Part shown: piece by piece, positions 3,277-36,898 of the stretch
Numbering within the stretch: the first letter of the stretch is position 1
Layout of the letters: the number at the start of each line of letters is the position of its first letter
NCBI GenBank assembly: GCA_017535325.1
Contig: JAFXUC010000080.1
Location: 1,213-65,212 of the forward strand
Origin: Bacteroidales bacterium
GTDB lineage: Bacteria; Bacteroidota; Bacteroidia; Bacteroidales; UBA3824
Length of the DNA: 64,000 nucleotides
Direction: 5' to 3'
Notes under the pieces: model-generated
The model's database searches: none
What the model was told of the DNA's origin: nothing
Seen by the model: only the letters and a program-made list of their open reading frames with translations
Program-made: the position numbers and the translations under genes

Positions 3277-3304
3277 CGGTGTTTTTTCGTATAACTTAAA
3301 AGAT

Positions 3305-4243
3305 ATGGAGTTTAGACGCGTTATATTATTGAATATTTTTATCTTTCTGATTGTCAATATTTTAGAGGCACAGGAAGATACGTTTAACCGTGTCAATAAG
3401 GATATGAAGAAAACCGGGCTGTGGATTTATTACTACGATACGCTCCATTTGGTGAAATTTTCGGAAGGCGAATACGTTGACGGTCAAAAGCAGGGCTGCT
3501 GGATAGAATATTACAGAAACGGAAACAAGAAAAGTGAAATCACGTATCTGAATAATGTTCCCTCAGGGCTCGCGAAACTATATTACGAAAACGGAAACCC
3601 TTCTGAACAAGGAACTTGGAATAGTTTCGGTTGGGTAGGGGAGTACAAGATGTTTTACCGCAGCGGAAGAATAGCCCGCGAACTAAACTACGACGAAAAC
3701 ACGCTCCGCTCCGGCATGCAGAAATACTATTCTGAGTCAGGACACGTTACAATGGCAGGTTATTGGGAAAACGGCATGGCGAAGGGACTCGTTACTGAAT
3801 ATTACGACAGCGGAAGACTCAGGGCGGAGAGTCAGTGGATGGGAGGACGTTTAAGCGGAATCACGAAAGAATATTACGAAACGGGAAGCCTTAAAGCCGA
3901 AATCGTTTACAACAACGGGGTCTATGATGTTGCCGCCTCGCGGACTTTCAAAAACCGTCAAGATGGCCACAACATCGCTGCTGTTGACAAACCTGCTGAA
4001 AAACCGTCCGTTACAAAACCAGAACAGCCGAAAGAAGATAAAGAATCTCCCTCGTATGCAGTTTTCCGCGGGACGGGTTACCACAAAATGTATGACCCTG
4101 ACACAAAACGCATAGAAAAGGAAGGCAATTTTATTGACGGCGTTCTTGATGAAGGAAAACGTTATTATTACAACTCGAAAGGCGAACTGATAAAGACCGC
4201 CATTTATGAACACGGAAAAATTGTTAAAATAATAGACAAATGA
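3305..4243 (+). CDS. MORN-repeat-variant (YwqK-like) secreted protein
   Basis: Signal-like N-terminus, then repeated G-x-W-x-x-YY-x-NG units ([54 protein letters not shown]). The stop overlaps the cysS start (ATGA). Confidence 0.65.
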
Positions 4244-24010: not shown

Positions 24011-25381
24011 ATGCAGTCAAATAACACAATATCAGCAATTTGTACGGGACACGGCGGCGCGATAGCCGTTTTGAGGGTTTCGGGCAATGACGCTTTGAAA
24101 ATCGTATCAAAGATTTTTAAACCTTTAAAAAAAGGCTTTTTGTTGGAAAATGCCGGGGCGAACCGCGTTTATAACGGTTTTATCGTTGACGGCGAAAACG
24201 AAGTTGACAGAGTAGTCCTGACAGTTTACCGTGCGCCTCATTCGTATACCGGCGAAGATGTTGTTGAAATTTCCTGTCATGCAAGCGTTTACATTCAAAA
24301 GGAGATTCTTTCGCTTTTGTTGAAAAACGGCTCTTTGTTGGCTCAGCGCGGAGAGTTTACGCGCCGTGCCTTTCAAAACAAAAAAATGGACCTCTCGCAG
24401 GCTGAGGCTGTTGCCGACCTTATTGCCTCAAAATCCAAAGCCGAACATGATATAGCAGTCAATCAAATGCGCGGCGGTATAACCTTAGAAATTAAGCGGT
24501 TAAGGGATTTGCTATTAAAGTTTACATCTTTGATGGAATTGGAACTTGACTTCTCGGAAGAGGACGTTGAGTTTGCCGACAGAAGTCAGTTGAAGGCGAT
24601 TCTGAAAGAGACTGAAAACTATCTTACAAGGCTTGTAAAATCTTTCAAATACGGCAACGCTATAAAAAACGGCATTCCGGTTGCGATTTGCGGCGAGCCT
24701 AACGCGGGAAAGTCAACACTTTTGAACGCGCTTTTGAACGACGAAAGGGCGATTGTCTCTGACATTCCAGGTACTACGAGGGACGTTTTGGAAGACTTTT
24801 TAACCGTTGAAGGTACGCTTTACCGTCTTATTGACACGGCGGGAATACGTCAGACGGATGACAAAATCGAAAAACTCGGCATCGACCGCGCAAAAACTGC
24901 GGTTTCTAAGGCGGAAATAGTTTTAATCGTTTTGAATCCTGCGGGCGACATTTTAAAGCAGTTCTCAGAGATTATACCAGAGGATTTTCCGAGAGAAAAA
25001 ATCATCGCAGTTGTCAATAAATCAGATGTTTATAAAAATGCAGACATTTCTGTCCTGCCGCCTGAGGTAAGCGTCGTAAAAATTTCCGCAAAACACAAAA
25101 CCAACTTGGAAGAACTTTTTTCAAAAATTTCCGCGCTCAGTGTTTCGGATTTTTCTCAGGACGAGGTTATTTTGACGAATGTCCGTCATTTTACGATATT
25201 TACAGAGGCTCTCTTAGCAATAGAGCGTGCAGAAAATGCCTTAAATTCAGGGCTTTCGGGCGAATTTGTCTCGCAGGACATCAGAGAGGCTTTAAGAGCC
25301 TTTGCCGAAATCACCGGCGATGAGATAACAACCGACGAGGTTTTAGGCAACATTTTCAAGAACTTTTGCATTGGAAAATAA
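24011..25381 (+). CDS. mnmE: tRNA modification GTPase MnmE
   Basis: DTISAICT, G1 GEPNAGKST, G3 DTAGIR, G4 NKSD, and the invariant C-terminal FCIGK. Confidence 0.95.
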   Translation: MQSNNTISAICTGHGGAIAVLRVSGNDALKIVSKIFKPLKKGFLLENAGANRVYNGFIVDGENEVDRVVLTVYRAPHSYTGEDVVEISCHASVYIQKEILSLLLKNGSLLAQRGEFTRRAFQNKKMDLSQAEAVADLIASKSKAEHDIAVNQMRGGITLEIKRLRDLLLKFTSLMELELDFSEEDVEFADRSQLKAILKETENYLTRLVKSFKYGNAIKNGIPVAICGEPNAGKSTLLNALLNDERAIVSDIPGTTRDVLEDFLTVEGTLYRLIDTAGIRQTDDKIEKLGIDRAKTAVSKAEIVLIVLNPAGDILKQFSEIIPEDFPREKIIAVVNKSDVYKNADISVLPPEVSVVKISAKHKTNLEELFSKISALSVSDFSQDEVILTNVRHFTIFTEALLAIERAENALNSGLSGEFVSQDIREALRAFAEITGDEITTDEVLGNIFKNFCIGK

Positions 25382-25382
25382 A
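25364..25382 (+). repeat. attL-like copy of the direct repeat (functional mnmE 3' end)
   Basis: TTT TGC ATT GGA AAA TAA A. Confidence 0.75.
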
Positions 25383-25400
25383 TTTACTTTATGACCATAT

Positions 25401-25434
25401 AAACCGACTATATATAAACATCAAACCGACTATA
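25401..25434 (+). repeat. two 12-bp direct repeats AAACCGACTATA (candidate integrase arm-type sites)
   Basis: Copies at 25401..25412 and 25423..25434, 22 bp apart. A second pair, ATCAATTATTTG, lies at 25446..25457 and 25481..25492. All sit between attL and int. Confidence 0.4.
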
Positions 25435-25582
25435 AATATTTAAAAATCAATTATTTGCGTAATTGTTGGGTATTGCATTTATCAATTATTTGTTGTTATT
25501 TTGCGGTGTAAAAATGTTGCTAATTTTACAGAAACAAATTTGCAACAAAATCGAAACGTAAAACAATTTAAAATTTTCAAAA

Positions 25583-26695
25583 ATGAATAATTTAAAAGAA
25601 CCCGTAAAATTACGCAAAAGGGAGCGTACAAAAGGCGGTTATTCGCTTTATCTTGACATCACTGTTGATGGAAAGCGTACATACGAGTATTTGAAACTTT
25701 ATCTTGTACCCGAAGTAAGCCGTGCCGACAAACTTAAAAACCAAGAAACTATGCGCTTTGCAGAGGCAATTAAAGCGCAAAGAGTTGTAGAAATTCAAAA
25801 CGGAAGATTCGGATTTGAAAACCGTAAAACTGCGAAAATCAATCTGTTTAAGTATTGGGACGTTGTTATGGAACGCCGCAAAAAAGAAGATTCTGTTGGT
25901 AATTATGGTAATTGGTATAGTGTAAAGACACATTTACTTAAATACGCTGGAACTGGTAATGTCCGAATGTGTGATGTTGATGAAAAATTTTGTCAAGGAT
26001 TTAAAGATTATTTAGAAAATGCTGTTACAAAATCCAACAAACCGTTAAGTCCAAACTCTAAGAACTCTTATTTCATTAAGTTCCGAGTGTTTATGCAGAC
26101 CGCCTTACAAGAGGGCGTTATTTATAAGAATCCGTGTGCAGGCATAAAGCCAGCCGCACAAAGCGAGGAAAAACGTGAGTATTTGACTATGGACGAACTC
26201 AAAGTGCTTGCACAAACACCTTGTTGTAAAGATGTTTTAAAACGGGCGTTCTTATTCTCTTGTCTTACGGGATTAAGGTGGAGTGATGTAAACAAACTTC
26301 GTTGGTCTGATGTGAGGGAACAAGACGGATTTAAGCGCATTGTTTTCCGTCAGAAGAAAACTAAAAATCTTGAATATCTTGATATAAACGAGCAAGCCTC
26401 AGCACTTATGGGCGACAGAACCGATGATGATAACCGTGTTTTTGTGGGTTTGAAATATTCAGCACAAATGAATCTCGAATTACAGCGTTGGTGTATGATT
26501 GCGGGTATTACAAAGAAAATAACTTTTCATTGTGCCCGGCATACCTTTGCGGTTATGTTGCTGACTTTGGGAACGGAGATTTATACTGTCCAAAAACTTT
26601 TGGGACACAAGGAACTTAAAACTACACAGATTTATGCAGATATTTTGGATAAGAAAAAGCAAGAAGCAGTTACAAAATTACCGCAAATTTTGTAA
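25583..26695 (+). CDS. int: tyrosine site-specific integrase
   Basis: Catalytic-domain motifs LTGLRWSDV (Arg I), HCARHTFAV (H-x-x-R) and LLGHKELKTTQIYAD (His/Tyr nucleophile). N-terminal SAM-like domain typical of Bacteroidota integrases. Confidence 0.9.
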   Translation: MNNLKEPVKLRKRERTKGGYSLYLDITVDGKRTYEYLKLYLVPEVSRADKLKNQETMRFAEAIKAQRVVEIQNGRFGFENRKTAKINLFKYWDVVMERRKKEDSVGNYGNWYSVKTHLLKYAGTGNVRMCDVDEKFCQGFKDYLENAVTKSNKPLSPNSKNSYFIKFRVFMQTALQEGVIYKNPCAGIKPAAQSEEKREYLTMDELKVLAQTPCCKDVLKRAFLFSCLTGLRWSDVNKLRWSDVREQDGFKRIVFRQKKTKNLEYLDINEQASALMGDRTDDDNRVFVGLKYSAQMNLELQRWCMIAGITKKITFHCARHTFAVMLLTLGTEIYTVQKLLGHKELKTTQIYADILDKKKQEAVTKLPQIL

Positions 26696-26882
26696 ATATT
26701 GGGGTTTGAGTAATTATTTTTCTTTGTTACGCGGAATTTTTAAACAGAGTTGATATTTTTTCTTTACTAAACAAGAAAAATAAAACTTTTTACTAAAATA
26801 TTTGGAAAATATAAAATAAACGTTTATATTTGCAGCCAAAACCAAATTTATTTTTTATTAATTAACTTTAAACATTCTAATC

Positions 26883-27482
26883 ATGGTAAAGAAATGTCAA
26901 TACTGAGGACGTACTTATGAAGGACGGAGTGATAGCCGTTTTTGTTCCGCAAAATGTAAAAACACCTATCACAACAAAAAACGTTTGGGCGAAATTCAAG
27001 ACCCCGAAAATGACGAAAACGAGGACGATGATGAACGTTTAACCGATTCAAAGCCGTTTAAACCCGTTGTAACGCTCCCTGATGATGACGATGAAAACGA
27101 GTATGAAGACGATTACGAAGACGAAAACGAGTATGAAGATGAAGACGAAGACGAGGACGAGGAAGACGAAGAAACGGATTCTAATGAAAGCGATTACGAC
27201 CAACTCGTAGACGAGTACAACGCTCTTGTTGACCAATACGAAAGTCTAAGACAACAAAATGCGCGGCTTGTCAAAAATAACTCGGCACTTGCCACAGAAT
27301 TAAACGCCGAAAAACGTAAACGCCAAAAAGCAGAAGAAAGGGCAACTTATTGGCAAGGTCAATACAACGAGTCGGAATCGTTTTTTCAAAAGTACATCAA
27401 AGAGAAAAAATCCGAACCCGAAGAGCCTGAAACGGAAGATAATGAGGGTGAAGATGATTATGGGTTACACCTTTTCGATTAA
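26883..27482 (+). pseudogene. zinc-ribbon plus poly-acidic plus coiled-coil protein, interrupted by an in-frame TGA at codon 8
   Basis: ATG 26883 sits downstream of a TAtaTTTG box (26825..26832). It reads MVKKCQY-TGA(26904..26906)-GRTYEGRSDSRFCSAKCKNTYHNKKR and is in frame with the track ORF 26985..27482 (TTG start). The stop occupies the second Cys position of a CxxC-x12-CxxxC ribbon. Confidence 0.6.
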
Positions 27483-27491
27483 CGTTTTTAG

Positions 27492-27510
27492 GGCGGCTGA
27501 AAATGCCGCC
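27492..27510 (+). terminator. rho-independent terminator
   Basis: GGCGGC-tgaaaat-GCCGCC followed by TTTTTCTTTT. Confidence 0.7.
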
Positions 27511-27577
27511 TTTTTCTTTTTTGTAAAATAGGAAAAAACATTTATATTTGCCGAAAACTTTTTAACACAATATAGTT

Positions 27578-27763
27578 ATGTCAAAGGAAGATAAAAAAGA
27601 GATTATGCGACAGCGTAAAGCGTTGCTTTTGTTGATTTTAGAGCGTACTAAAACACCAAAAAAAGCAATTATCGAGGACGCTTTGGACGAGTTTGTAAAA
27701 TCCAATCTTGACGTGGTTTCCGAAGAAGAAAGAAAGCAATTTGACAAACTTATTTTTGCTTAA
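27578..27763 (+). CDS. VapB-like antitoxin (by position)
   Basis: 61-aa ORF 3 nt upstream of the PIN gene. TAtaTTTG box at 27543..27550. Confidence 0.55.
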   Translation: MSKEDKKEIMRQRKALLLLILERTKTPKKAIIEDALDEFVKSNLDVVSEEERKQFDKLIFA

Positions 27764-27766
27764 AAT

Positions 27767-28228
27767 ATGGAAAGTCAAATTATTTCCGTCTATTTGGACA
27801 CCAATATTTTGGTAAATTATTGTTCGGGACAAGACGAAGATATAAAAATTGTCAAGTACCTTACGGAAGTTAGGTTTGCGCAAAATTTATATGTATCGGC
27901 TTTGTCCGTGGCTCAAACCGTGTCAATTATTCAATCACGGAAAGCCAAAACGAAAGAAACCAAACGTTTGGAAATCAACCGTTTGCAAGAAGTTTTGAAA
28001 AAAATTACGGTTGTCGGTCTGACAGATAAGGAAATTATTAATAGTTTTGAAATGTACAATAAGTTAAATTCTATTGACATTGAAGATACTATACATTATT
28101 TTGTCGCTAAAAAGATAAAGTGTGATGCCATTGTTACTCACAATAAATCTGACTTTTTGGCATTTGTCGGAAACGACATCAAAATTATAGAGGCTTTTAC
28201 ACCATTGATTAGACGGTGGGTAAAGTAA
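27767..28228 (+). CDS. PIN-domain (VapC-like) ribonuclease toxin
   Basis: VYLDTNILVNY (first acidic residue), DIEDTIHYFVA, AIVTHNKSDF. These are typical PIN acidic-residue positions. Confidence 0.75.
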   Translation: MESQIISVYLDTNILVNYCSGQDEDIKIVKYLTEVRFAQNLYVSALSVAQTVSIIQSRKAKTKETKRLEINRLQEVLKKITVVGLTDKEIINSFEMYNKLNSIDIEDTIHYFVAKKIKCDAIVTHNKSDFLAFVGNDIKIIEAFTPLIRRWVK

Positions 28229-28237
28229 GATTTTTTC

Positions 28238-28258
28238 AGGCGGCTATTTTAGCCGCCT
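28238..28258. terminator. bidirectional terminator between the PIN gene (+) and the repressor gene (-)
   Basis: AGGCGGCT-atttt-AGCCGCCT, flanked by T6 and T-runs. Confidence 0.75.
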
Positions 28259-28260
28259 TT

Positions 28261-28836
28261 TTAATTCTCTTTCAGTGATATTGTTTGTAATCTATTTGGC
28301 GATTTATGATACTTAAACCAAAAATCGGCAAAATCTTCTATGCCGCTGCGCTTGTAAACTATTCTGTATAAGGCTAATTTTAAGACCTCTTTATCTTTTT
28401 CTTCGTCAATATATGAAACTAAATCCTGAAATTCTCTTTCCGTATATTTACTCAAAATATCAAAAATCTGATATTTATCTATCTTTTCAAAACGCTTTTT
28501 TATAAGGTTGAAAATTTCGTCTTTGTCGTCAATAGTTATAGAGCCCATCATATTTTCTATAAAACTAAATGCATTTGCCAACACTTCTTTATATTCTACA
28601 TTCAGTAGTATATTTGTATTTTTCTGTAACAATGTTTTAGGCGTGTTTGTGTCATCAAAAAAGACATCAACAGGAACATTAAAAAATTTTGATAATCGTT
28701 CCAAATATTCAGACGATATTTTATTATTATTAATAGCCTTATATAATCCCGCATCAGTTATGCCGATTTCATTACATAAATCTTTGAATTTTATGTTTTT
28801 TCCCTCGCAAAGGGTTTTTATTATGCCTAAATTCAT
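28261..28836 (-). CDS. XRE-family HTH repressor (cI-like) with a C-terminal domain
   Basis: N-terminal KNIKFKDLCNEIGITDAGLYKAINNNKISSEYLERLSKFFNVPVDVFF is an HTH_3/XRE motif. Divergent from a Cro-like gene. Confidence 0.75.
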   Translation of the reverse strand: MNLGIIKTLCEGKNIKFKDLCNEIGITDAGLYKAINNNKISSEYLERLSKFFNVPVDVFFDDTNTPKTLLQKNTNILLNVEYKEVLANAFSFIENMMGSITIDDKDEIFNLIKKRFEKIDKYQIFDILSKYTEREFQDLVSYIDEEKDKEVLKLALYRIVYKRSGIEDFADFWFKYHKSPNRLQTISLKEN

Positions 28837-28918
28837 AATTATAAACTATTGAAAATTAACAACTTATATTTTCCTTTCTGTTCTTTAACGTTTCTTAACT
28901 AATTTTTGTTTGGTTATT

Positions 28919-28960
28919 ATACTAACTTTAGTTAATTTTGCAACTAATTAAAGTTAGTAT
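28919..28960. promoter_or_regulatory. operator-like 12-bp perfect inverted repeat bracketing a -7 box
   Basis: ATACTAACTTTA (28919..28930) and TAAAGTTAGTAT (28949..28960). TAatTTTG at 28933..28940 lies between the arms and begins 40 nt upstream of ATG 28973. Confidence 0.6.
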
Positions 28961-28972
28961 AAATATAAAATT

Positions 28973-29224
28973 ATGGACAAAATTACAAATTTTTCTAAAC
29001 ATTTCAATTCTGTTGTGAATAAAAAAACACGCGCAGAATTAAGAAATAGTATTATCGACATAACGGGTATTAGTTACGCTGGGTTTAGGCGTTGGGTAAA
29101 TAGCATTTGTGAAGTCCCTAAAATTTATCATACCGCTATTGCCGAAATTATGGGAGCGGAAGTTTCGGAACTGTTCCCTAACACAAATAACAATTCCGAA
29201 GTAACAATTAAAAACGCAAAATAA
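28973..29224 (+). CDS. small HTH protein (Cro-like)
   Basis: TRAELRNSIIDITGISYAGFRRWVNS is HTH-like. Divergent from the XRE repressor. Confidence 0.6.
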   Translation: MDKITNFSKHFNSVVNKKTRAELRNSIIDITGISYAGFRRWVNSICEVPKIYHTAIAEIMGAEVSELFPNTNNNSEVTIKNAK

Positions 29225-29225
29225 A

Positions 29226-29501
29226 ATGGCAGTAAAACAAACATTTAAAACTATTGATAAATATTTCAATGTTGAAACAGGCAAAAAGTTTCGTGATGAC
29301 AAATTTCAGTGGCAAGCAGTAGTAACACTTATAGATAGTCAAGGTAATCACGATGTTGATGGCATTGAATTGTCTGATTTGATTGGTCAAGAAGTCAAAA
29401 ATAAAATCTTCATAAACGAGGACGAACTCTCTTATGTCATTGAACTATTACAAGCAGTACAATCGGAGGTTTCCAAATGGGAAAATTCATCGGCGAAATA
29501 A
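29226..29501 (+). CDS. hypothetical protein (element)
   Basis: Starts 1 nt after the previous stop. No recognisable motif. Confidence 0.45.
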   Translation: MAVKQTFKTIDKYFNVETGKKFRDDKFQWQAVVTLIDSQGNHDVDGIELSDLIGQEVKNKIFINEDELSYVIELLQAVQSEVSKWENSSAK

Positions 29502-29579
29502 AAAAAGGTGTTTGCCGCTGCAACGACAAACACCTATAATCAACTTAAATTATAAACTTTTAAATTTGAGTACAAATTT

Positions 29580-29831
29580 ATGGACGCAAAGATAGATAAT
29601 ATTATTGAATATGCACCCATAAAACCCGAAAAAAAATTTTTTCAACGTTTGAGGGATTTTTGCGGCTGGGTGCTGAAAGGCTCTTTGAAACTTTCGGGCG
29701 TTGTATTGCTCGAAATGTTAACTCTTGTAATTGACCCTTTAAAGTCTTTTCTCTGCAAGTTCCTTGCGGTTCTTGGAGGTAGGGACGGCGGGGTTTGTGA
29801 TATGGCTGTTTTTTTACTGCGGATTTTATAA
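29580..29831 (+). CDS. hypothetical protein (element), weak
   Basis: 83-aa ORF. An antisense ORF of similar size exists, so coding status is uncertain. Confidence 0.3.
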   Translation: MDAKIDNIIEYAPIKPEKKFFQRLRDFCGWVLKGSLKLSGVVLLEMLTLVIDPLKSFLCKFLAVLGGRDGGVCDMAVFLLRIL

Positions 29832-29843
29832 GGAGGTGGTAGT

Positions 29844-29993
29844 ATGGGTAAAATCTATAATGCAATAAGAGGTGTTTTTGCTCTTATAGGCTACTTTGTA
29901 GTGTTTTATCATTTGATAATATCCGACTTACCGAGCCTTATAAAGTACCTTACAAATGCGGTAAAGAGTGTAATAATTTTTTTAATCTATTAG
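29844..29993 (+). CDS. 49-aa small membrane protein, below the ORF-track cutoff
   Basis: MGKIYNAIRGVFALIGYFVVFYHLIISDLPSLIKYLTNAVKSVIIFLIY*. Preceded by AAGGAGGTGG (29830..29839), a strong Shine-Dalgarno-like sequence that is rare elsewhere in this window. Confidence 0.45.
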   Translation: MGKIYNAIRGVFALIGYFVVFYHLIISDLPSLIKYLTNAVKSVIIFLIY

Positions 29994-29996
29994 ACT

Positions 29997-30782
29997 ATGG
30001 CAGAAAAAATTATCTCAACCCCTACCCTTGATGATGATTGCGATATGATAACTTTCATTCGGGATAAGGGTGCGACATCGGTGCAACGTGGATTTGACTA
30101 TGATTCTACTACGGCGCGACAAGAGTTTACCGAAAAAAACGGCAAATGCGACAATAATCGGACATCGGTGCAACGGTATAGCGACACATCGGCGGCACGT
30201 AGCAACAAGCCCAAACCGCCTACCGATAGAGAAATACTCTCTCTGAACGCTGATTTGGTTAAGGTCTTAAAAAACGACCGCTTTGTAAGATACAGCACCA
30301 ACGGCGACTACCGTAATTATTTGAATTTCTTTGACAACGTCCCGAAAAACCTTGTTAAAGAGGTCAATAAATTGGGTATAAAACGAGCGGACGGACGGGA
30401 GTATACACGCGAAACCATAAGCCGCGTAGTTACGGCAATGAAGATTGAGCGGCGGTTTAAGCCTTTTACGGTGTGGTTCATCGGGATTGCAGTATGTTTT
30501 TTCTCTGTTTATGCAACCCTGAAAATCTCGCAGTTTGAATTTGATTTTGGCAGCGTAGGCAGCGGAAACGGCGTTTTAACAAGTTCTTTTGGCGGCGGTT
30601 ATACTTTGGAGGACATTGACAAGCATATTAACGATTTGGCAAAAGAAAACAGAGTAACGATTTATCCGTTCAGACGTAACAAAATTAAAAAAGAAATTCA
30701 ATTAAGCGGCGATAACTCGCTGAAAAACATTGAATTAATTATAAATAACAATATTAATGAATTAAAAACCTTAACAAAATGA
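29997..30782 (+). CDS. hypothetical membrane-anchored protein (element)
   Basis: One TM (FTVWFIGIAVCFFSVYATL). Internal repeat ATSVQRG / RTSVQRY. No family recognised. Confidence 0.5.
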   Translation: MAEKIISTPTLDDDCDMITFIRDKGATSVQRGFDYDSTTARQEFTEKNGKCDNNRTSVQRYSDTSAARSNKPKPPTDREILSLNADLVKVLKNDRFVRYSTNGDYRNYLNFFDNVPKNLVKEVNKLGIKRADGREYTRETISRVVTAMKIERRFKPFTVWFIGIAVCFFSVYATLKISQFEFDFGSVGSGNGVLTSSFGGGYTLEDIDKHINDLAKENRVTIYPFRRNKIKKEIQLSGDNSLKNIELIINNNINELKTLTK

Positions 30783-31060
30783 AAGGATTATTCATAGGGT
30801 TGGTACTGTTGGCGGCGGTTTGCATTTTCAACGCCGTACAAAACCATCAGGCGGTAACGAGAGAGGAGTTTACCGAAACCCATAAACGGTTGAAAATGCA
30901 AGTTGACAGTATTTTAAGGAATTGTGATTCGCTCAAAAGTGAACTTCGGGCGGTGCGCTGTAATACTGATACGCTCCGAGCCGGTCAAGAGGTCATTTTT
31001 AAGACTATGAGTGAAAACCGCGAAAAACGGTCATTGTTGGACTTTATAATCGGGAGGTAA
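30779..31060 (+). CDS. hypothetical protein with N-terminal TM and coiled coil (element)
   Basis: ATGA overlap with the previous gene. MKGLFIGLVLLAAVCIF, then a helical region. Confidence 0.5.
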   Translation: MKGLFIGLVLLAAVCIFNAVQNHQAVTREEFTETHKRLKMQVDSILRNCDSLKSELRAVRCNTDTLRAGQEVIFKTMSENREKRSLLDFIIGR

Positions 31061-31062
31061 TT

Positions 31063-31284
31063 ATGGACACAAAGAGTAAAGAATACTTGGAAGAGTTGGA
31101 TACTATTCTCGACATCGGACAACAGCAACGGAAAATTGCGGATATAAATTGCAATAATCCGAGTTACTATGATAAACTCAAATTACAGAGTTTTATACTG
31201 ATACGAAAAATTAATAAATATAATCATAAATATTGTTGTAAAAAATGCAGAAAGAAAGAGAACCAACAAGGCGGCGGGGATTAA
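31063..31284 (+). CDS. hypothetical protein (element)
   Basis: Starts 2 nt after the previous stop. 73 aa. Confidence 0.4.
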   Translation: MDTKSKEYLEELDTILDIGQQQRKIADINCNNPSYYDKLKLQSFILIRKINKYNHKYCCKKCRKKENQQGGGD

Positions 31285-31496
31285 CGCCGAGTCCGTTCCA
31301 ATATGATTATTTTGGACGGCTGCAAAAAATATCCCCAATAACGGCGGCGCAAATCAGCGGATTTTATGAAACGTTGAAATTATGTGCCGACAGAAATAAC
31401 TTAGCGAAACTCTTACAAAACGCGGATTTAATACCGTCAAACGGCGACAAAACGCGGATTTTGGAGTTAGCGGAAATTATAAAAACCGAAAATTAA
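31245..31496 (+). CDS. hypothetical protein (element)
   Basis: 83-aa ORF overlapping the previous one by 40 nt, so the start is uncertain. Confidence 0.35.
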   Translation: MQKEREPTRRRGLTPSPFQYDYFGRLQKISPITAAQISGFYETLKLCADRNNLAKLLQNADLIPSNGDKTRILELAEIIKTEN

Positions 31497-31513
31497 TTAA
31501 TAAAATAAACAAA

Positions 31514-31834
31514 ATGAATACAGATACATTAGAAATACTGTTAAAGCAGTTGATTTCAGAAGTACACGATTCTCGAATGGCGACAATAATATCACAGAAA
31601 GAATGGCTCAATACAGAGGAAGCAGCATTTTTTCTTGGTATAACGCCGCAATCATTAAACCAACGTGCGGTTGATAAGACAATCGTCTATTATAAAGGTA
31701 ATGGTAAATATCGGTCATATAATAAAAAAGAACTTATGGAGAGTTTTTTTGGCAAACAAGACCGTGTTCCGACCAATAGTGAAATAGAAGAACGAGCGGC
31801 GGAGGAACGACGAAAGAGAATGTATGGAAAATAA
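31514..31834 (+). CDS. excisionase-type / MerR-like helix-turn-helix DNA-binding protein
   Basis: EWLNTEEAAFFLGITPQSLNQRAVDKTIVYYKGNGKYRSYNKKEL matches the winged-HTH pattern of excisionase-family proteins. The terminator CTGACGGT...ACCGTCAG at 31840..31865 follows. Confidence 0.6.
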   Translation: MNTDTLEILLKQLISEVHDSRMATIISQKEWLNTEEAAFFLGITPQSLNQRAVDKTIVYYKGNGKYRSYNKKELMESFFGKQDRVPTNSEIEERAAEERRKRMYGK

Positions 31835-31986
31835 AAAAACTGACGGTGCTTGGTTCTACCGTCAGTTTTAAAAATTCTTTATTTGGCTGTAAAACAGCAC
31901 TTGATAGTTGATAGATTTTTCAAGTGCAAAGATAAATATTTTTTCTTGTTTTACAGCCATTTTAACAAATTTTAATAATATAAAAA

Positions 31987-33198
31987 ATGGCAACATCAAA
32001 AAATAAAAAAGACGAAAATTACAACGAACCCACACAAATCAAAGTGGAGCGTTATCTCAACAACAATTACGATTTTCGATGGAACACCGTACTCAAAGAT
32101 TGTTTCTACAAGAAGAAAGGCGAAGACAACAGTTGTTACCAACAAATAAGTGTTCCCAAGTTGTGGCGAGAACTGCAAACGCACGGTTTCAAGTATTCTG
32201 CAACCAATTTGGAATACACGATGGGCAGCGACTTTGTGCCGCAATACGACCCAATCAAAGAGTATTTTGAGGGACTTCCAAAGTGGGACGGCAAAACCGA
32301 CCACATCCGCAAACTATGCAGCCATATTGTATTGGTGGACGAAACAGACGAGGAAATTGAACGCTTAAACACTATGTTCCAAAAATGGTTGGTGCGCTGT
32401 ATCCGTTGTGCATTAGGCGGACGGCTCAACCGTGAAGTGATTATGTTTAAGTCCGACAAGCAAAGACTTGGCAAAACGGAGTTTTTTCGCTATCTGACAC
32501 GTTGCACCAATTTGAGCGACTACTATATGGAAAATCCCGAAATCGGCAACAAGGATGCCCTAATCTCCCTCACCGAAAATATCATCATAAACTTTGATGA
32601 ATACGACAAGTATTTGCGCGAGGGCGACCTACCAAAAATGAAGTCCTACATATCGCAGGACTCGCCAAAGGTGCGCGTACCATACGGACGTAAACAAGAG
32701 AAAATCAAACGTATATGCAGTTTCGTTGCTACAACCAATATTCCCGATTTTTTGAGGGACGAAACGGGCAACACGCGGTTTATCTGTTTCGACATTGACG
32801 GCATTGATTGGCGCGAATATACCAAAATGGATATTAACCTGATTTGGGGTCAAGCATACCACCTCTACCAACTTTCTTTGTCAGGCAAATATAATTGCGA
32901 AATGACCGACAGCGAAGTACAAGCCAACAACCTCAACAACCTCAAATACCTTTATCATTCATCAGAATATGAATTGATACAGAAGATATTTGAGCCAAGC
33001 GACAACCCCGCTGACTTTATGACTACCACCGACATAGCCGACTACCTCCACGACAACACCCGGTACAAGAATATCACCACAAATGCCGTAGGTAGAGCGT
33101 TGACCGCACAAGGCTATAAAAAGGTGCATAATAAGACGGATAATGCAAAACAAGGTTATCAAATTCGAGAAAAAAACCGTACTACTGAACTATTTTAA
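31987..33198 (+). CDS. VirE/VapE-family P-loop protein (replication-associated, helicase-like)
   Basis: PKWDGKTDHIRKL, Walker A-like SDKQRLGKTEFFRYL, Walker B-like IINFDEYDK, TTNIPDFLRDETGNTRF. Confidence 0.65.
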   Translation: MATSKNKKDENYNEPTQIKVERYLNNNYDFRWNTVLKDCFYKKKGEDNSCYQQISVPKLWRELQTHGFKYSATNLEYTMGSDFVPQYDPIKEYFEGLPKWDGKTDHIRKLCSHIVLVDETDEEIERLNTMFQKWLVRCIRCALGGRLNREVIMFKSDKQRLGKTEFFRYLTRCTNLSDYYMENPEIGNKDALISLTENIIINFDEYDKYLREGDLPKMKSYISQDSPKVRVPYGRKQEKIKRICSFVATTNIPDFLRDETGNTRFICFDIDGIDWREYTKMDINLIWGQAYHLYQLSLSGKYNCEMTDSEVQANNLNNLKYLYHSSEYELIQKIFEPSDNPADFMTTTDIADYLHDNTRYKNITTNAVGRALTAQGYKKVHNKTDNAKQGYQIREKNRTTELF

Positions 33199-33240
33199 TT
33201 TTAAATTACTGTAATATAGATAGTTATGGTTAATATATAA

Positions 33241-33280
33241 TCTATACTATTCTATACTATTCTGTACTATTCTATACTAT
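33241..33280 (+). repeat. four tandem 10-bp iterons, candidate replication origin
   Basis: TCTATACTAT TCTATACTAT TCTGTACTAT TCTATACTAT. Inverted copies of the core (ATAGTACGG) lie at 33312..33320 and 33372..33380, and AATAGTGTAG at 33363..33372. Confidence 0.6.
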
Positions 33281-33669
33281 TTTAATGCTTTGCAAAAGAA
33301 AAAAGTATGAAATAGTACGGATTAGAACGGAAATATTTTTTGTAAGTTGCTGAAAATCAACGAATAGTGTAGATAGTACGGATTTTGCCAAATTTCGCAA
33401 AAAAATCTTACAAAACATTTTGCGTAAAAACAAGAGTTAACATATTAAAAAACAGACAATTATGCAACCAAAAATACTTAAAAACATATCATTGTCCGAT
33501 TTTATAAAACTCCGTAAGATAATGGACGAAAAAGCGGAAAAGGGAGAAGAAATACCTTTATTATTTCGCTTAATACCTAAAATCAGACCGTTATTGAATA
33601 ACATAGCAAAGAAAAAAACTCTTTTTCTTTTGCAATGCATTGATAATAAACTTTTAATATCACAAAATT

Positions 33670-34596
33670 ATGAATATAACAGAATTAAAAAAATACGTAA
33701 AAATAAGTGATTTTATGCACATAAATCACTATGAGCCAACAAGTAAGAGTGGCAAATATCTTCATTATAAAAGTCCTTTGAGAGAGGACAAAAAGCCGTC
33801 TTTTTGGGTGGACATCGAAAAGGACATTTGCGGCGACTTTTCAACGGGTAAAATTGGCGATATTGTAAATTTGGCAGCGGCGTTTTGGCGTTTGGATTTA
33901 AAGGCGGCAAAACAAAATTTGGAAGATATGTTCAGGCTTGGTTCTTTTTCTTTTGCAAAGCCGAAATATACTTTTCAAAAGAGCAGCGCACCGACCGCAG
34001 CCACCGAAAGCAAGGTTTATATAAAACACGTTCAAGACATTCAAAACGCGGCGTTATTGCAGTATATTGAGGAGCGCGGTATAAGTTGTGCCGTTGCAAA
34101 AGAGTATGTGAAAGAGGTTTACTATAAAACTGCGGACACCGAAACGGCGCGTCAATATTTTGCGTTGGCGTTCAGGAACGACAAAGGCGGTTATGAATTA
34201 CGAAACAAATACTTCAAAGGCTCAACATCACCCAAAGACGTAACAACCATAAAAAACGGCTCAAAATCCGTACTGATTTTTGAGGGATTTTTTGACTTTT
34301 TGGCGTGTGTGGAATATTGGAATGGTAAAAACAAGATAATCCCCTACGATATAATTGTATTAAATTCGGTCAGCAATGCCAACAAAATCAATCTTGACAA
34401 ATACGATACAATAAAGTTGCTGTTGGACAACGACACCGCCGGACAGAACACCGCCGAACTTTTAACAATACAGTACAGCGGCAAGACAGTTGAAAACGTA
34501 ACAAAAAAACTGTTTGTCGGTGAGTTTAAAGAGTGTAAGGATTTCAACGATTATTGGCGAAAGGTCATAAAAAGCATTAAAAAAAATGTTGTGTAA
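33670..34596 (+). CDS. Toprim-domain DNA primase-like protein
   Basis: N-terminal YKSPLREDKKPSFWVD...CGDFSTGKIGDIVNL (degenerate CHC2 finger region as in Bacteroides mobilizable-element primases). C-terminal VLIFEGFFDFL...LLLDNDTAG is a Toprim E...DxD pattern. Confidence 0.7.
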   Translation: MNITELKKYVKISDFMHINHYEPTSKSGKYLHYKSPLREDKKPSFWVDIEKDICGDFSTGKIGDIVNLAAAFWRLDLKAAKQNLEDMFRLGSFSFAKPKYTFQKSSAPTAATESKVYIKHVQDIQNAALLQYIEERGISCAVAKEYVKEVYYKTADTETARQYFALAFRNDKGGYELRNKYFKGSTSPKDVTTIKNGSKSVLIFEGFFDFLACVEYWNGKNKIIPYDIIVLNSVSNANKINLDKYDTIKLLLDNDTAGQNTAELLTIQYSGKTVENVTKKLFVGEFKECKDFNDYWRKVIKSIKKNVV

Positions 34597-34732
34597 TTAT
34601 GATAAATTACATACTTTTGCACTTTGTATTTACTATGAATAAATAAGTAAAATTGGTGCTAAAATGGTGCAATTTTTTATTAACTATGTATATAACTGTT
34701 TGGTATTCAGTTGTATATGTAATGATAACACT

Positions 34733-34751
34733 TTCTGCATTGGTAAATAAA
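34733..34751 (+). repeat. attR-like copy of the direct repeat (displaced mnmE 3' end remnant)
   Basis: TTC TGC ATT GGT AAA TAA A. Reads FCIGK* but has no ORF upstream. Confidence 0.75.
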
Positions 34752-34774: not shown

Positions 34775-35668
34775 ATGGGAAAAATTCTGATAATATTTCT
34801 TTATTTGACGGTTTTCGGCATCGAACCCGATACTACTTCGCGGGTTTATTTTTCTGCGTCGCCTCAGGAGATGTCCGAAGCGGATTCCGCAAATTTGTAT
34901 ATGCCTTTTTCCTCTGAAAATGAAGGTGTTATCTTCACTGCTTTCGGTATCAAAGCGGAATATGTAAAAGTTAACCCGCCGGTTTATGACAGGTTTCATA
35001 TAGATTTGAACAAAGACAGGTTCAAGGAAGTATATCCGTGGCAGGTGTTTTTGCCGTTGCTTTTTTGCGTTGTGCTGATACTTTTGGCGCGGTTTTACGT
35101 CTCTGACAGCATAAGGCGGGTGTTTTTGGCGGTCTTTTACGACAACGCCTTTCAAAATGCGGTTTCGGAAAAAAACGTCAACGCCGACAAAGCGGGTTAT
35201 ATGCTTTTTATTTGTTACCTTGTTAACGCCGTTCTTGTGATTTGCGTCTGTCTTTTCCGTTACGGAAGTCCTTTCGTGGAAAATTTCGGCAGGGCGTTGA
35301 TGATTTTAACCGCCGCCGTTGCGGGATTTTATGTGATAAAGAGAATGATTTCGGGTGTTTTGTCCGAACTTTTCGGCTGCCGTGATATTTTTTCGCTTTA
35401 TTACAAACGCTCGTCTTTTATTTTTCAGGCGTTGGGAGTGGTGTTAACGGTCGTAAATTTCATAAGTTTTTATGTAGCCTCGGCGTCGGTTCACGATTTT
35501 GCCTTTTATTTTACCGTGATTTTGTGCGTTTTTGCGGAGATTTGGAAAATTTTTAAACTTTTTTCAATTATATTTGAAAAACGGTTTCCGATTTTTTATT
35601 TGTTTTTATACCTTTGCGGCGTGGAATTTTTACCCGCTGTTTATGCCGTCAAAATATTGTCCGATTGA
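34775..35668 (+). CDS. DUF4271-like multi-pass membrane protein
   Basis: Six or more hydrophobic helices. It lies immediately upstream of a hemD-like gene, a recurrent Bacteroidota arrangement. Confidence 0.6.
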   Translation: MGKILIIFLYLTVFGIEPDTTSRVYFSASPQEMSEADSANLYMPFSSENEGVIFTAFGIKAEYVKVNPPVYDRFHIDLNKDRFKEVYPWQVFLPLLFCVVLILLARFYVSDSIRRVFLAVFYDNAFQNAVSEKNVNADKAGYMLFICYLVNAVLVICVCLFRYGSPFVENFGRALMILTAAVAGFYVIKRMISGVLSELFGCRDIFSLYYKRSSFIFQALGVVLTVVNFISFYVASASVHDFAFYFTVILCVFAEIWKIFKLFSIIFEKRFPIFYLFLYLCGVEFLPAVYAVKILSD

Positions 35669-35731: not shown

Positions 35732-36490
35732 TTGAAAATAAGTAACGTACTGGTTTCGCAGCCCAAACCTGCGGCTGAGAGCAACAATCCTTACCAGCTG
35801 TTGGCTGATAAGTTGAAATTTAACGTTGAATTCAGACAGTTTATCAAAGTGGAGGGGGTAACTTCCAAGGAGTTCCGCGGTCAGCACATAAACCTGCCCG
35901 ATTTTACCGCCGTCGTTTTTACCTCCAAAATCGGGATAGACAATTACTTTAAGTTTGCAAAAGAGATAAAATTCAACGTGCCGGAGGATATGCTTTATTT
36001 TTGCACGACTGAGGCTATCGCGCTTTATCTTCAAAAATATATAATCTTCCGTAAAAGGAAAATTTTTTACGGCACCAAGACAATTTCGGACATAACGGAT
36101 ACCATCAAAAAGCATCTTGATGCAAAGGTTTTGATTGTAAAAGGCGATGTTTCCAACGATGAGATACCGAAGTTTTTCGACAAGATGAAAATGTTTCACA
36201 AGGAAATCACGCTTTACAAAACCGTCAGCGCGGATTTGTCGGATATAGAAAAGGATTTTTCAAAATATCAGGTCTTGGTATTTTTCACGCCTTCGGGTAT
36301 AAAATCTCTGAAAGAGAATTTCCCCGATTGGAAACAGGGCGATGTGAAAATTGCCGCTTTTGGTGCAACAACTCACGAGGAAATCAAAAAACTCGGTTAT
36401 ACGCTTGACATAGCAGCCCCGACGGAGGAAAACCCGTCAATGATTATGGCGTTGGAAAAATTTATTACCGCCGCCAACAAAAAGAAGTAA
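35732..36490 (+). CDS. hemD: uroporphyrinogen-III synthase-like protein
   Basis: (TTG)KISNVLVSQPKP..., two-lobed HEM4-like repeat (VVFTSKIGIDNYF / LVFFTPSGIKSL). Confidence 0.7.
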   Translation: MKISNVLVSQPKPAAESNNPYQLLADKLKFNVEFRQFIKVEGVTSKEFRGQHINLPDFTAVVFTSKIGIDNYFKFAKEIKFNVPEDMLYFCTTEAIALYLQKYIIFRKRKIFYGTKTISDITDTIKKHLDAKVLIVKGDVSNDEIPKFFDKMKMFHKEITLYKTVSADLSDIEKDFSKYQVLVFFTPSGIKSLKENFPDWKQGDVKIAAFGATTHEEIKKLGYTLDIAAPTEENPSMIMALEKFITAANKKK

Positions 36491-36499
36491 ATAATTTTT

Positions 36500-36898
36500 A
36501 TGCCTAAAAAATACGGACTTTCAAGAAGCGAAAAACTGAAAAGCGTTGTCAGGACGGAAAAACTTTTCACGAAGGGAAAATCTTTCAGGGTTTTCCCTTT
36601 CAGTGTATATTTTCATTTAAGTAACGACGGGGAACTTACACAAAATCAGTTTCTTGTATCGGTCGGAAAACATTATTTCAAACATGCCGTCGACAGAAAC
36701 CGTATGAAAAGGCTCGTCAGGGAGGCTTACCGCAAAAACAAACTGCCGCTTTACGCAGTCTCGGAAGAAAAAAAGGTGTTTTTCAATATCGGCTTTGTTT
36801 ACCGTCTCAACGTTTTGAGTGATTATAAGACTGTTGAGACGGCGGTTAAAAACGCCTTGCAGATTTTGTCCGAGAAAATTGAGGCGTTTAATGCTTGA
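36500..36898 (+). CDS. rnpA: ribonuclease P protein component
   Basis: AVDRNRMKRLVREAYR is the RNase P protein signature. 132 aa. Confidence 0.85.
   Translation: MPKKYGLSRSEKLKSVVRTEKLFTKGKSFRVFPFSVYFHLSNDGELTQNQFLVSVGKHYFKHAVDRNRMKRLVREAYRKNKLPLYAVSEEKKVFFNIGFVYRLNVLSDYKTVETAVKNALQILSEKIEAFNA

What the first reader, a model, noticed from the sequence alone, without database searches (positions are those of the whole stretch)
25364..34751. Integrative element inserted in the mnmE 3' end; FCIGK-stop is encoded twice, 9.4 kb apart
Seen in sequence: mnmE ends TTT TGC ATT GGA AAA TAA A (25364..25382). The string TTC TGC ATT GGT AAA TAA A (34733..34751) is identical at 17 of 19 positions and also reads FCIGK-stop in frame, but it has no ORF upstream. 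A tyrosine integrase abuts the left copy. The conserved DUF4271-hemD-rnpA block resumes 24 nt after the right copy. Established knowledge: islands that target the 3' end of a gene supply a surrogate 3' end and leave a displaced duplicate at the far junction. Both differences between the copies are synonymous third-position changes, as expected if one copy came with the element. Inference: mnmE is the att site, and this is not a tRNA-targeting island.
Basis: partly seen in the sequence, partly recalled or inferred. Interest (0 to 1): 0.6.

Follow-up and report, generated by a model that had tools for sequence, protein, structure and literature searches.

The report
Mobile element inserted in mnmE's last codons
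A 9.4-kb phage-related mobile element sits in the last codons of the housekeeping gene mnmE of a rumen/gut Bacteroidales bacterium. Other public metagenomes hold both the empty site and the excised circular form, so it is a live element, and it uses the same site that the Salmonella island SGI1 uses in another phylum.

Summary
The two 19-mers (25364-25382 and 34733-34751, 17/19 identical, both reading FCIGK-stop) are the only copies in the window and in the 3.7-Mb genome.

Contigs from five public runs join 25366 directly to 34736, which is the empty attB (TTT-TGCATTGG-T). Contigs from three other runs join 34735/34741 back to 25367/25373, which is attP (TTC-TGCATTGG-A). In those three runs the host flanks are nearly absent while the element is at 5-59x. 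The two differing bases therefore flank an 8-bp crossover, TGCATTGG. Each integrated copy is a hybrid, and the element supplies only the last 8 nt of mnmE (synonymous).

The 9,369-bp element carries:
- a tyrosine integrase with an arm-binding domain;
- a repressor/Cro-like switch;
- a candidate excisionase;
- a VapE-like helicase, iterons and a primase;
- a variable PIN module.

No relaxase or virion genes were found.

About 50%-identical integrases sit next to the same mnmE core across Bacteroidota, including complete 55-kb phages whose attP mimics it. I found no paper describing this site in Bacteroidota. SGI1 and MGIVchHai6 use it in Gammaproteobacteria. Whether the element is a phage satellite remains open.

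The parts
24011..25381 (+). mnmE (tRNA modification GTPase), 456 aa, intact, ends FCIGK-stop. Its last 8 nt (A AAA TAA, from 25375) are element-derived.
   Evidence: Pfam TrmE_N, MnmE_helical and MMR_HSR1. FCIGK-stop is invariant in 28 relatives.
25364..25382 (+). attL 19-mer TTTTGCATTGGAAAATAAA. The crossover (overlap) region TGCATTGG is 25367-25374.
   Evidence: Joint positions with 8 shared letters. attB and attP letters.
25401..25492 (+). Candidate arm-type integrase binding repeats: AAACCGACTATA(T/A)ATA twice (25401, 25423) and ATCAATTATTTG twice (25446, 25481).
   Evidence: the repeat finder. ACCGACTATATATAAAC and ATCAATTATTTGTTGTTATTTTG recur at the left end of the G023 element. Their function is inferred.
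25583..26695 (+). Tyrosine integrase, 370 aa, with Arm-DNA-bind_5, Phage_int_SAM_5 and Phage_integrase domains.
   Evidence: Pfam E = 4e-12, 3.5e-21 and 1.5e-22. phrog_1 integrase 1.8e-53. Single copy in the genome.
26883..27482 (+). Hyper-acidic coiled-coil protein (ORF 26985-27482, 165 aa), preceded in frame by a zinc-ribbon-like stretch that is cut by a TGA.
   Evidence: Function unknown.
27578..28228 (+). A 61-aa ORF plus a PIN-domain protein (153 aa), a likely VapBC-type toxin-antitoxin module. It is variable cargo: 27505-28251 is missing in element variants.
   Evidence: PIN Pfam 2.3e-13. Joint 27504->28252 in X15 and X13, and a depth drop in X25.
28261..28836 (-). HTH (Cro/C1-type) repressor-like protein, 191 aa, divergent from the rest of the element.
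   Evidence: Pfam HTH_26 and HTH_3. phrog_8 transcriptional regulator 9e-13.
28917..28962 (.). 21-nt inverted repeat (90% complementary) between the repressor gene and the rightward operon. Candidate operator.
   Evidence: the repeat finder.
28973..31496 (+). Rightward operon of small ORFs (83, 91, 83, 49, 261, 93, 73 and 83 aa) with no family assignment.
   Evidence: orf83a is shared with the G023 element.
31514..31834 (+). 106-aa HTH_17-like protein, a candidate excisionase/AlpA-type regulator.
   Evidence: Pfam HTH_17 E = 0.005 (weak). phrog_25262 3e-11. Homologues lie 1.5-3 kb downstream of related integrases in viral contigs. The role is inferred.
31987..33198 (+). VapE-like (D5/P4-alpha-type) helicase with a DUF3874 tail, 403 aa.
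   Evidence: Pfam VapE-like_dom 8.9e-31. phrog_1313 DNA helicase 4e-52.
33238..33287 (.). Four to five tandem 10-bp iterons (TATTCTRTAC) plus ATAGTACGGATT twice. Candidate replication origin.
   Evidence: the repeat finder.
33670..34596 (+). DnaG-type primase (CHC2 zinc finger plus Toprim), 308 aa.
   Evidence: Pfam Toprim_2 2e-8 and Zn_ribbon_DnaG 4e-5. TIGR01391 8e-16.
34733..34751 (+). attR 19-mer TTCTGCATTGGTAAATAAA. The crossover region is 34736-34743.
34775..35668 (+). DUF4271 gene, the first host gene after the element. It is followed by hemD (35732-36490) and rnpA (36500-36898).
   Evidence: Pfam. It is adjacent to mnmE in G012 and in the empty-site contigs.

Best explanation
The interval 25364/25367 to 34732/34743 is a 9,369-bp site-specific integrative element that can excise and probably replicate on its own. 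Its heterobivalent tyrosine integrase recombines an element attP (TTC-TGCATTGG-AAAATAAA) with the chromosomal attB formed by the last codons of mnmE (TTT-TGCATTGG-TAAATAAA). Strand exchange occurs inside the 8-bp TGCATTGG, which covers the Cys-Ile-Gly codons. The element brings its own 'A AAA TAA', so MnmE keeps an unchanged FCIGK C-terminus. Integration leaves the hybrid sites attL (T...A) and attR (C...T).

The element carries a repressor/Cro-like switch, a candidate excisionase, a helicase-iteron-primase replication module and a facultative PIN toxin module. It has no virion genes and no relaxase. It belongs to a Bacteroidota-wide integrase family whose other members include complete temperate phages with the same mnmE-mimicking attP.

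Shown here: the ends, attB, attP, the crossover window and the family-wide target. Inferred: which protein is the excisionase, which repeats are arm sites, autonomous replication, and the transfer route. The most likely route is hijacking a helper phage, that is, a phage satellite.
For: Repeat uniqueness.

Empty site in a relative: G012.

Empty site in the same species: contigs skip 9,369 bp with 8 shared letters in X17, X19, X30 and X13, and at 25363->34733 in X20. The X17 letters read ...AAAAACTTT|TGCATTGG|TAAATAAACAAAAC.

attP: 'goes back 9369' contigs occur in X15 (311 nt), X16 (1,638 nt) and X25 (2,008 nt, depth 44.8). The X15 and X16 letters read ...AACACTTTC|TGCATTGG|AAAATAAATTTACTTT.

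Depth in those runs: host flanks are about 0x in X15 and X16 and 0.5-6x in X25, against 5-8x and 45-59x for the element.

A related 6.75-kb element lies between 18-bp repeats at mnmE in G023, with a different downstream gene.

Gene content.

Family: 24 of 40 integrase copies in Bacteroidota genome loci have the FCIGK-stop core 158-298 nt upstream. Of 44 IMG/VR contigs, 29 show the shorter CIGK-stop core upstream of the integrase, 13 of them next to mnmE and 16 in non-mnmE context that reads as attP. G044, 55.7 kb and 100% complete by CheckV, carries portal and head-morphogenesis genes.
Against: The junction evidence comes from Logan contigs, not raw reads. The only raw-read runs offered did not contain the organism, so excision frequency in an integrated population is unmeasured.

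An attP-type junction would also arise from tandem arrays.

The sample type of X15, X16 and X25 (virus-particle preparation or total DNA) is unknown.

No packaging or capsid-redirecting gene and no helper phage was identified, so the satellite part is unproven.

No enzyme activity was tested.
Confidence: 0.9

Rival explanations
1. The element is specifically a phage satellite. It excises and replicates when a helper phage infects or is induced, and it is packaged in the helper's capsids. This is a sub-hypothesis of the main explanation about the transfer route.
For: The gene set matches the operational definition of a satellite. It has an integrase, a regulatory switch and a primase/helicase replication module, no structural genes, and is 9.4 kb, roughly one sixth of the 55-kb phages that share its integrase family. 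In three runs the circular or concatemer junction is the dominant form and the element outnumbers the host flanks by at least 8-fold.
Against: No small terminase, capsid-size or scaffold gene, cos/pac site or helper was identified. No virome provenance could be shown. A VapE search of IMG/VR found nothing. One GenBank 'Bacteriophage sp.' scaffold with a related integrase carries mnmE itself, so it is host DNA and not proof of packaging.
Confidence: 0.35
2. The element is an integrative plasmid-like episome, or an integrative mobilizable element moved by conjugation. It would use a helper conjugative transposon and an unrecognised oriT or relaxase.
For: Its own primase, helicase and iterons could maintain a circle. 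Bacteroides NBU-type elements are also about 10 kb with an integrase and a primase-like gene (my own knowledge, plus PMC5704250). Seven small ORFs and a 261-aa protein remain unassigned.
Against: No relaxase or mobilisation family hit appears in Pfam, NCBIfam or PHROGs. All Bacteroidetes IMEs described in the review encode a relaxase (PMC5704250). The integrase relatives sit in phages.
Confidence: 0.2
3. The element is a decayed, immobile prophage remnant, and the repeats are only an old scar.
For: There are no virion genes. One gene upstream of the acidic ORF is cut by an in-frame TGA.
Against: Precise empty sites and attP junctions occur in eight runs from seven studies. The reciprocal pattern of the two diagnostic bases is intact, and so are the integrase and replication genes.
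Confidence: 0.04
4. The 19-mer duplication is chance or a local duplication unrelated to recombination.
For: None beyond the shortness of the repeat.
Against: 0.03 copies are expected by chance and two are observed, and only two in the genome. The joints fall exactly in the repeat. The G023 element has the same architecture.
Confidence: 0.01

Closest known systems
[quoted passage not shown]
   Same: They integrate by a tyrosine integrase into the last 18 bp of trmE/thdF (= mnmE). They leave 18-bp direct repeats that differ at two positions between attP and attB, form a circular attP intermediate, and use secondary sites or tandem arrays (PMC2297512; table in PMC5704250). Here the site is the homologous FCIGK-stop codons, there are two diagnostic differences, and secondary sites occur in relatives.
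   Different: The phylum differs (Bacteroidota). The element is 9.4 kb against about 42 kb. It carries no resistance integron, no relaxase or mobilisation genes and no T4SS-remodelling genes, and its relatives are phages, not plasmid-mobilised islands. Homology of the integrases beyond the tyrosine-recombinase fold was not tested.
Phage satellites (PICI, P4-like, PICMI, marine VEIMEs)
   Same: They are small integrative elements with an integrase, a regulatory switch, a primase/helicase replication module and no structural genes (PMC9618062, PMC10085698, PMC10803314).
   Different: No helper, packaging signal or capsid-redirecting gene is identified here. The host group (rumen/gut Bacteroidales) and the target site are not among the described families. 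Packaging is not demonstrated.
Bacteroides NBU1/NBU2 mobilizable elements
   Same: They are about 10-kb Bacteroidales elements with a tyrosine integrase, accessory excision genes and a primase-like gene, with site-selective integration at the 3' end of a conserved gene. The primase-like gene and the tRNA target are from my own knowledge; the rest is in PMC5704250.
   Different: NBU elements target tRNA genes and encode a MobP relaxase with an oriT. No relaxase was found here.
dusA-specific integrase family (Farrugia et al. 2015, PMC4482086)
   Same: An integrase clade dedicated to one tRNA-modification gene, shared by prophages and genomic islands across many genera.
   Different: That family targets the 5' end of dusA in Proteobacteria. 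This one targets the extreme 3' end of mnmE in Bacteroidota.

Membership tests
Site-specific integrative element (tyrosine-recombinase type) | Encodes a tyrosine integrase next to one end | tested here: met
   The ORF 25583-26695 has Phage_integrase, SAM_5 and Arm-DNA-bind_5 domains.
Site-specific integrative element (tyrosine-recombinase type) | Flanked by direct repeats (attL and attR) derived from the target | tested here: met
   The 19-mers are 17/19 identical and unique in the genome.
Site-specific integrative element (tyrosine-recombinase type) | Precise empty site (attB) in strains that lack it | tested here: met
   Found in G012 and in same-species contigs of X17, X19, X20, X30 and X13.
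Site-specific integrative element (tyrosine-recombinase type) | Excised circular form with a reconstituted attP | tested here: met
   attP junction contigs occur in X15, X16 and X25. A tandem array is not formally excluded.
SGI1-family integrative mobilizable elements | Integration into the last 18 bp of trmE/mnmE | tested here: met
   The crossover lies in the Cys-Ile-Gly codons of the FCIGK-stop. Comparison is with PMC2297512.
SGI1-family integrative mobilizable elements | SGI1 backbone: mobilisation/oriT genes, T4SS-subunit homologues, helper IncA/C-plasmid dependence | tested here: not met
   No relaxase or transfer family hit for any ORF. Helper dependence is not testable here.
SGI1-family integrative mobilizable elements | Integrase orthologous to the SGI1 integrase | not tested
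   No SGI1 sequence was fetched. The relatives found are all from Bacteroidota elements and phages.
Phage satellites | Integrase, regulatory and replication modules in a small element with no virion structural genes | tested here: met
   Absence rests on failure to hit Pfam, PHROGs or NCBIfam.
Phage satellites | Helper-phage-dependent induction and packaging into helper-derived particles | not testable with these tools
   The only indirect evidence is that the attP form dominates and the element exceeds its host flanks in X15, X16 and X25. The sample type is unknown.
Phage satellites | Genes or sites that redirect packaging (terS, capsid-size or scaffold genes, cos/pac) | tested here: inconclusive
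   No hit, but eight ORFs have no assignment.
NBU-type Bacteroides mobilizable elements | Relaxase (Mob) gene with an oriT | tested here: not met
   No relaxase family hit. The largest unassigned ORF is 261 aa.
Temperate phage (complete prophage) | Terminase, portal, capsid and tail genes | tested here: not met
   None in the 9.4 kb. In contrast, G044, which has a related integrase, has portal and head genes.

The most novel reading that the evidence does not exclude
This is a member of the first phage-satellite family of rumen/gut Bacteroidales. It is a virion-gene-less replicon that shares its integrase family and mnmE attachment site with 40-90-kb temperate phages. It is caught in three public metagenomes as a high-copy circle or concatemer without its host chromosome, possibly because it is packaged in helper capsids.
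Probability: 0.35. Interest if true: 0.65.

Novelty: new member of a known kind. Interest (0 to 1): 0.45.

Why it matters
First, it gives an experimentally tractable recombination system for Bacteroidales. The integrase, attP, attB and an 8-bp crossover window are all defined, and such tools are few in this group. The target is a site present in every genome checked, because the FCIGK-stop motif was invariant in all 28 relatives examined.

Second, the extreme 3' end of mnmE has been adopted independently as a landing site in two phyla: by SGI1 and MGIVchHai6 in Gammaproteobacteria, and by a phage/island integrase family in Bacteroidota. This illustrates how an invariant C-terminal motif plus a stop codon makes a safe, conserved target.

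Third, if the element is a satellite, it opens helper-satellite biology in a dominant gut phylum where none has been characterised.

Tried and rejected
- Raw-read runs X21-X23 were laid to measure rare excision. The organism is not in them; 0-5 reads were laid.
- A library-word search for 'VIR' among runs holding the element returned nothing, so the nature of X15, X16 and X25 stays unknown.
- An IMG/VR scan with the VapE-like protein found no relative.
- Pfam terminase families (PF03237, PF03354) hit only 1 of 10 and 0 of 10 of the large viral records. I replaced that test with PHROG scans of G044, which found portal and head genes.
- GenBank 'Bacteriophage sp.' virome scaffolds with a 48%-identical integrase were examined. 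MT837961 contains mnmE itself, so it is host DNA. MT836017 is uninformative. Neither was used as evidence for packaging.
- An integrase tree was built to ask whether mnmE targeting is one clade. It is not cleanly so (8 label changes), because near-identical integrases also sit at look-alike secondary sites or in tandem or attP contexts. No tRNA lies beside the non-mnmE copies; the only two tRNA calls in those loci are 3.4-4.4 kb away.
- PADLOC found no defence system in the element.
- Literature searches for mnmE or trmE as an attachment site in Bacteroides or Bacteroidetes found nothing. The Riemerella 10K island uses tRNA-Arg.
- The X20 empty-site contig may read TTC at position 3, unlike X17, X19, X30 and X13 (TTT). 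This could not be resolved from the tables. Position 12 is T in the empty-site contigs whose joint places it, and this was read letter by letter only in X17.

Full report
**1. Observation**

- mnmE (24011-25381) ends TTT TGC ATT GGA AAA TAA A at 25364-25382.
- TTC TGC ATT GGT AAA TAA A lies at 34733-34751. This is 17 of 19 identical, and both differences are synonymous third positions.
- An in-frame TAA lies four codons upstream of the right copy, so it closes no ORF.
- The pattern, with up to 2 mismatches, occurs twice in the window against 0.03 expected. With up to 1 mismatch it occurs twice in the whole 3.72-Mb, 140-contig assembly.
- The interval is somewhat AT-richer than its flanks (0.25-0.45 GC against about 0.44 in mnmE).

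**2. What lies between the copies**

ORF and family scans give the following gene set:
- a tyrosine integrase with an arm-binding N-domain (25583-26695);
- a hyper-acidic coiled-coil protein;
- a 61-aa ORF plus a PIN protein, a likely toxin-antitoxin pair;
- a leftward HTH repressor-like gene, separated from a rightward operon by a 21-nt inverted repeat (28917-28962);
- eight small or unassigned ORFs;
- a 106-aa HTH_17-like protein (phrog_25262), whose homologues lie just downstream of related integrases in viral contigs. It is a candidate excisionase;
- a VapE-like helicase (31987-33198);
- four to five 10-bp iterons (33238-33287);
- a CHC2/Toprim primase (33670-34596).

No relaxase, transfer, virion, lysis or PADLOC defence family was hit. 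The integrase is single-copy in the genome. The identical integrase occurs on 22 public contigs. All ten places shown have the same mnmE-integrase context.

**3. Empty sites**

Among 40 relatives, the closest (G012, MnmE 90% identical) has mnmE, 13 nt, then DUF4271-hemD, with nothing in between.

More directly, contigs of the same species in public metagenome runs skip exactly 9,369 bp.
- X17, X19, X30 and X13 join 25366 to 34736 with 8 letters shared.
- X20 joins 25363 to 34733.
- These five runs come from five different studies.
- X13 holds both the occupied form (a contig running from mnmE into the integrase, 7.7x) and the empty form (13.5x).
- The X17 contig reads ...AAAAAC TTT TGCATTGG T AAATAAA CAAAACAAAAAGAGC.

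**4. Circular form**

In X15 and X16 (one study) and X25 (another study), contigs 'go back' 9,369 bp, joining the right end to the left end.
- The X15 and X16 contigs read ...ATGATAACAC TTC TGCATTGG A AAATAAA TTTACTTTATGACC.
- The contigs are 311, 1,638 and 2,008 nt long.
- The longest exact run shared by the two ends is 8 nt, far below the assembler's word length. False joining is therefore unlikely.
- In these runs the host flanks are essentially absent: about 0x in X15 and X16, and 0.5-6x in X25. The element lies at 5-8x and 45-59x respectively.
- The dominant form there is therefore a circle or concatemer, not an integrated copy. A long tandem array in another host is the only other reading.

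**5. Mechanism**

The four junctions form the reciprocal pattern expected of a tyrosine recombinase.

| Site | Position 3 | Position 12 |
|---|---|---|
| attB | T | T |
| attP | C | A |
| attL | T | A |
| attR | C | T |

- Strand exchange therefore lies between positions 3 and 12, in the 8-bp TGCATTGG (25367-25374 and 34736-34743).
- Everything to the right of that in attL is element DNA. This includes the last base of the Gly codon, the Lys codon, the stop codon and the 3' untranslated region.
- MnmE is unchanged (GGT becomes GGA).
- Repeats near the left end (AAACCGACTATA.ATA twice, ATCAATTATTTG twice) are partly conserved in the G023 element. They are candidate arm sites for the integrase's arm-binding domain. 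This is inference.

**6. Family**

G023, a goat-abomasum MAG of the same genus, carries a 6.75-kb relative.
- Its integrase is 87% identical, its helicase 72% and its primase 55%.
- It lies between TTCTGTATCGGAAAGTAA repeats at its own mnmE.
- The downstream gene there is different, so the target is the mnmE end itself.

A scan of one genome per species found 42 loci with integrases 35-87% identical.
- They come from Bacteroidales, Dyadobacter and Flavobacteriales.
- 24 of the 40 integrase copies scored have the FCIGK-stop core 158-298 nt upstream on the same strand.
- Several of the rest sit at look-alike sites, for example ...CAATTGGAAAGTGA, or the 'RGK-stop' end of another gene. Others sit in tandem or attP-like contexts.
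- This explains why the tree does not separate 'mnmE' from 'other' cleanly.

IMG/VR holds 44 viral contigs with integrases about 50% identical, many of them 33-92 kb.
- 29 of the 44 show the shorter CIGK-stop core upstream of the integrase.
- In 13 of those the core adjoins a host mnmE, as in a provirus. In 16 it lies in non-mnmE sequence, at least nine of them in mid-contig, which reads as attP.
- One of them, G044 (55.7 kb, 100% complete by CheckV), carries portal and head-morphogenesis genes.
- Others carry RecE-like, helicase, O-like replication and reverse-transcriptase genes.

The window's element is thus a small member, without virion genes, of a phage-type integrase family dedicated to mnmE. 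FCIGK-stop is invariant in all 28 relatives aligned. That the C-terminal CxGK motif of MnmE is functionally important is from my own knowledge and was not tested here.

**7. Comparison with what is known**

- SGI1 integrates into the last 18 bp of thdF/trmE (= mnmE). Its attP and attB differ at two positions. It has a circular intermediate, secondary sites and tandem arrays (PMC2297512).
- MGIVchHai6 uses the same gene (PMC5704250).
- These are gammaproteobacterial, plasmid-mobilised islands. The present element shares the site logic but not the backbone.
- All Bacteroidetes IMEs reviewed encode relaxases (PMC5704250), and this element does not.
- Its gene set fits the operational description of phage satellites (PMC9618062, PMC10085698). 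Packaging and a helper are not shown.
- My literature searches found no description of mnmE as an attachment site in Bacteroidota.
- Notes from other agents of this scan report decayed islands and cassette stacks at the same site in other Bacteroidota genomes. They agree with this reading but are not independent evidence.

**8. Verdict**

- The element is live, meaning capable of integration and excision, with about 0.9 confidence.
- Its transfer route is open: satellite about 0.35, conjugative or episomal about 0.2.
- Novelty: a new member of a known kind, namely site-specific integrative elements at the 3' end of a conserved gene. It reuses, in another phylum, the site made famous by SGI1.
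- Interest: moderate.

Noticed in passing
window 26883-27482: From ATG 26883 the frame reads MVKKCQY-TGA-GRTYEGRSDSRFCSAKCKNTYHNKKR and runs on, without a frame change, into the hyper-acidic 165-aa ORF. A zinc-ribbon-like N-terminus is cut by one in-frame TGA. The G023 element has an intact 165-aa Cys-rich protein at the same position. The X25 variant has several 1-3-nt deletions in 26850-26882.
   Followed up: partly
window 27505-28251: The PIN module with its 61-aa partner is missing or replaced in the element variants seen in X15, X13 and X25. These include the variants found in the circular form. The toxin module is therefore facultative cargo.
   Followed up: partly
L019 (G003:C55), just after mnmE: Two back-to-back copies of the att core, TTCTGTATCGGAAAGTAGA followed at once by TTCTGCGTGGGAAAGTGA. 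This looks like a scar left by an element lost from the mnmE site.
   Followed up: no
L032 (G029:C10) 2883-4214: In a different family of the order, an integrase only 31% identical lies about 620 nt downstream of mnmE. It may be a second, distant integrase lineage using the same site.
   Followed up: no
L036 and L050: Two integrases of different sub-lineages (52% and 39%; 51% and 38% identity to the window's) lie in series behind one mnmE. This suggests tandem accretion of elements at the site.
   Followed up: no
L103 1583-5897 (IMG/VR 43.7-kb phage contig): A phage carrying the related integrase also carries a reverse transcriptase (phrog_1423, 1e-130) next to an 872-aa protein. This is probably a diversity-generating retroelement.
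   Followed up: no
window 30071-30487 and 31496-31830: Element variants in X15, X29, X30 and X27 replace these stretches with unrelated sequence of similar length (397 and 396 letters). The element appears to be modular and mosaic within the unassigned operon.
   Followed up: no
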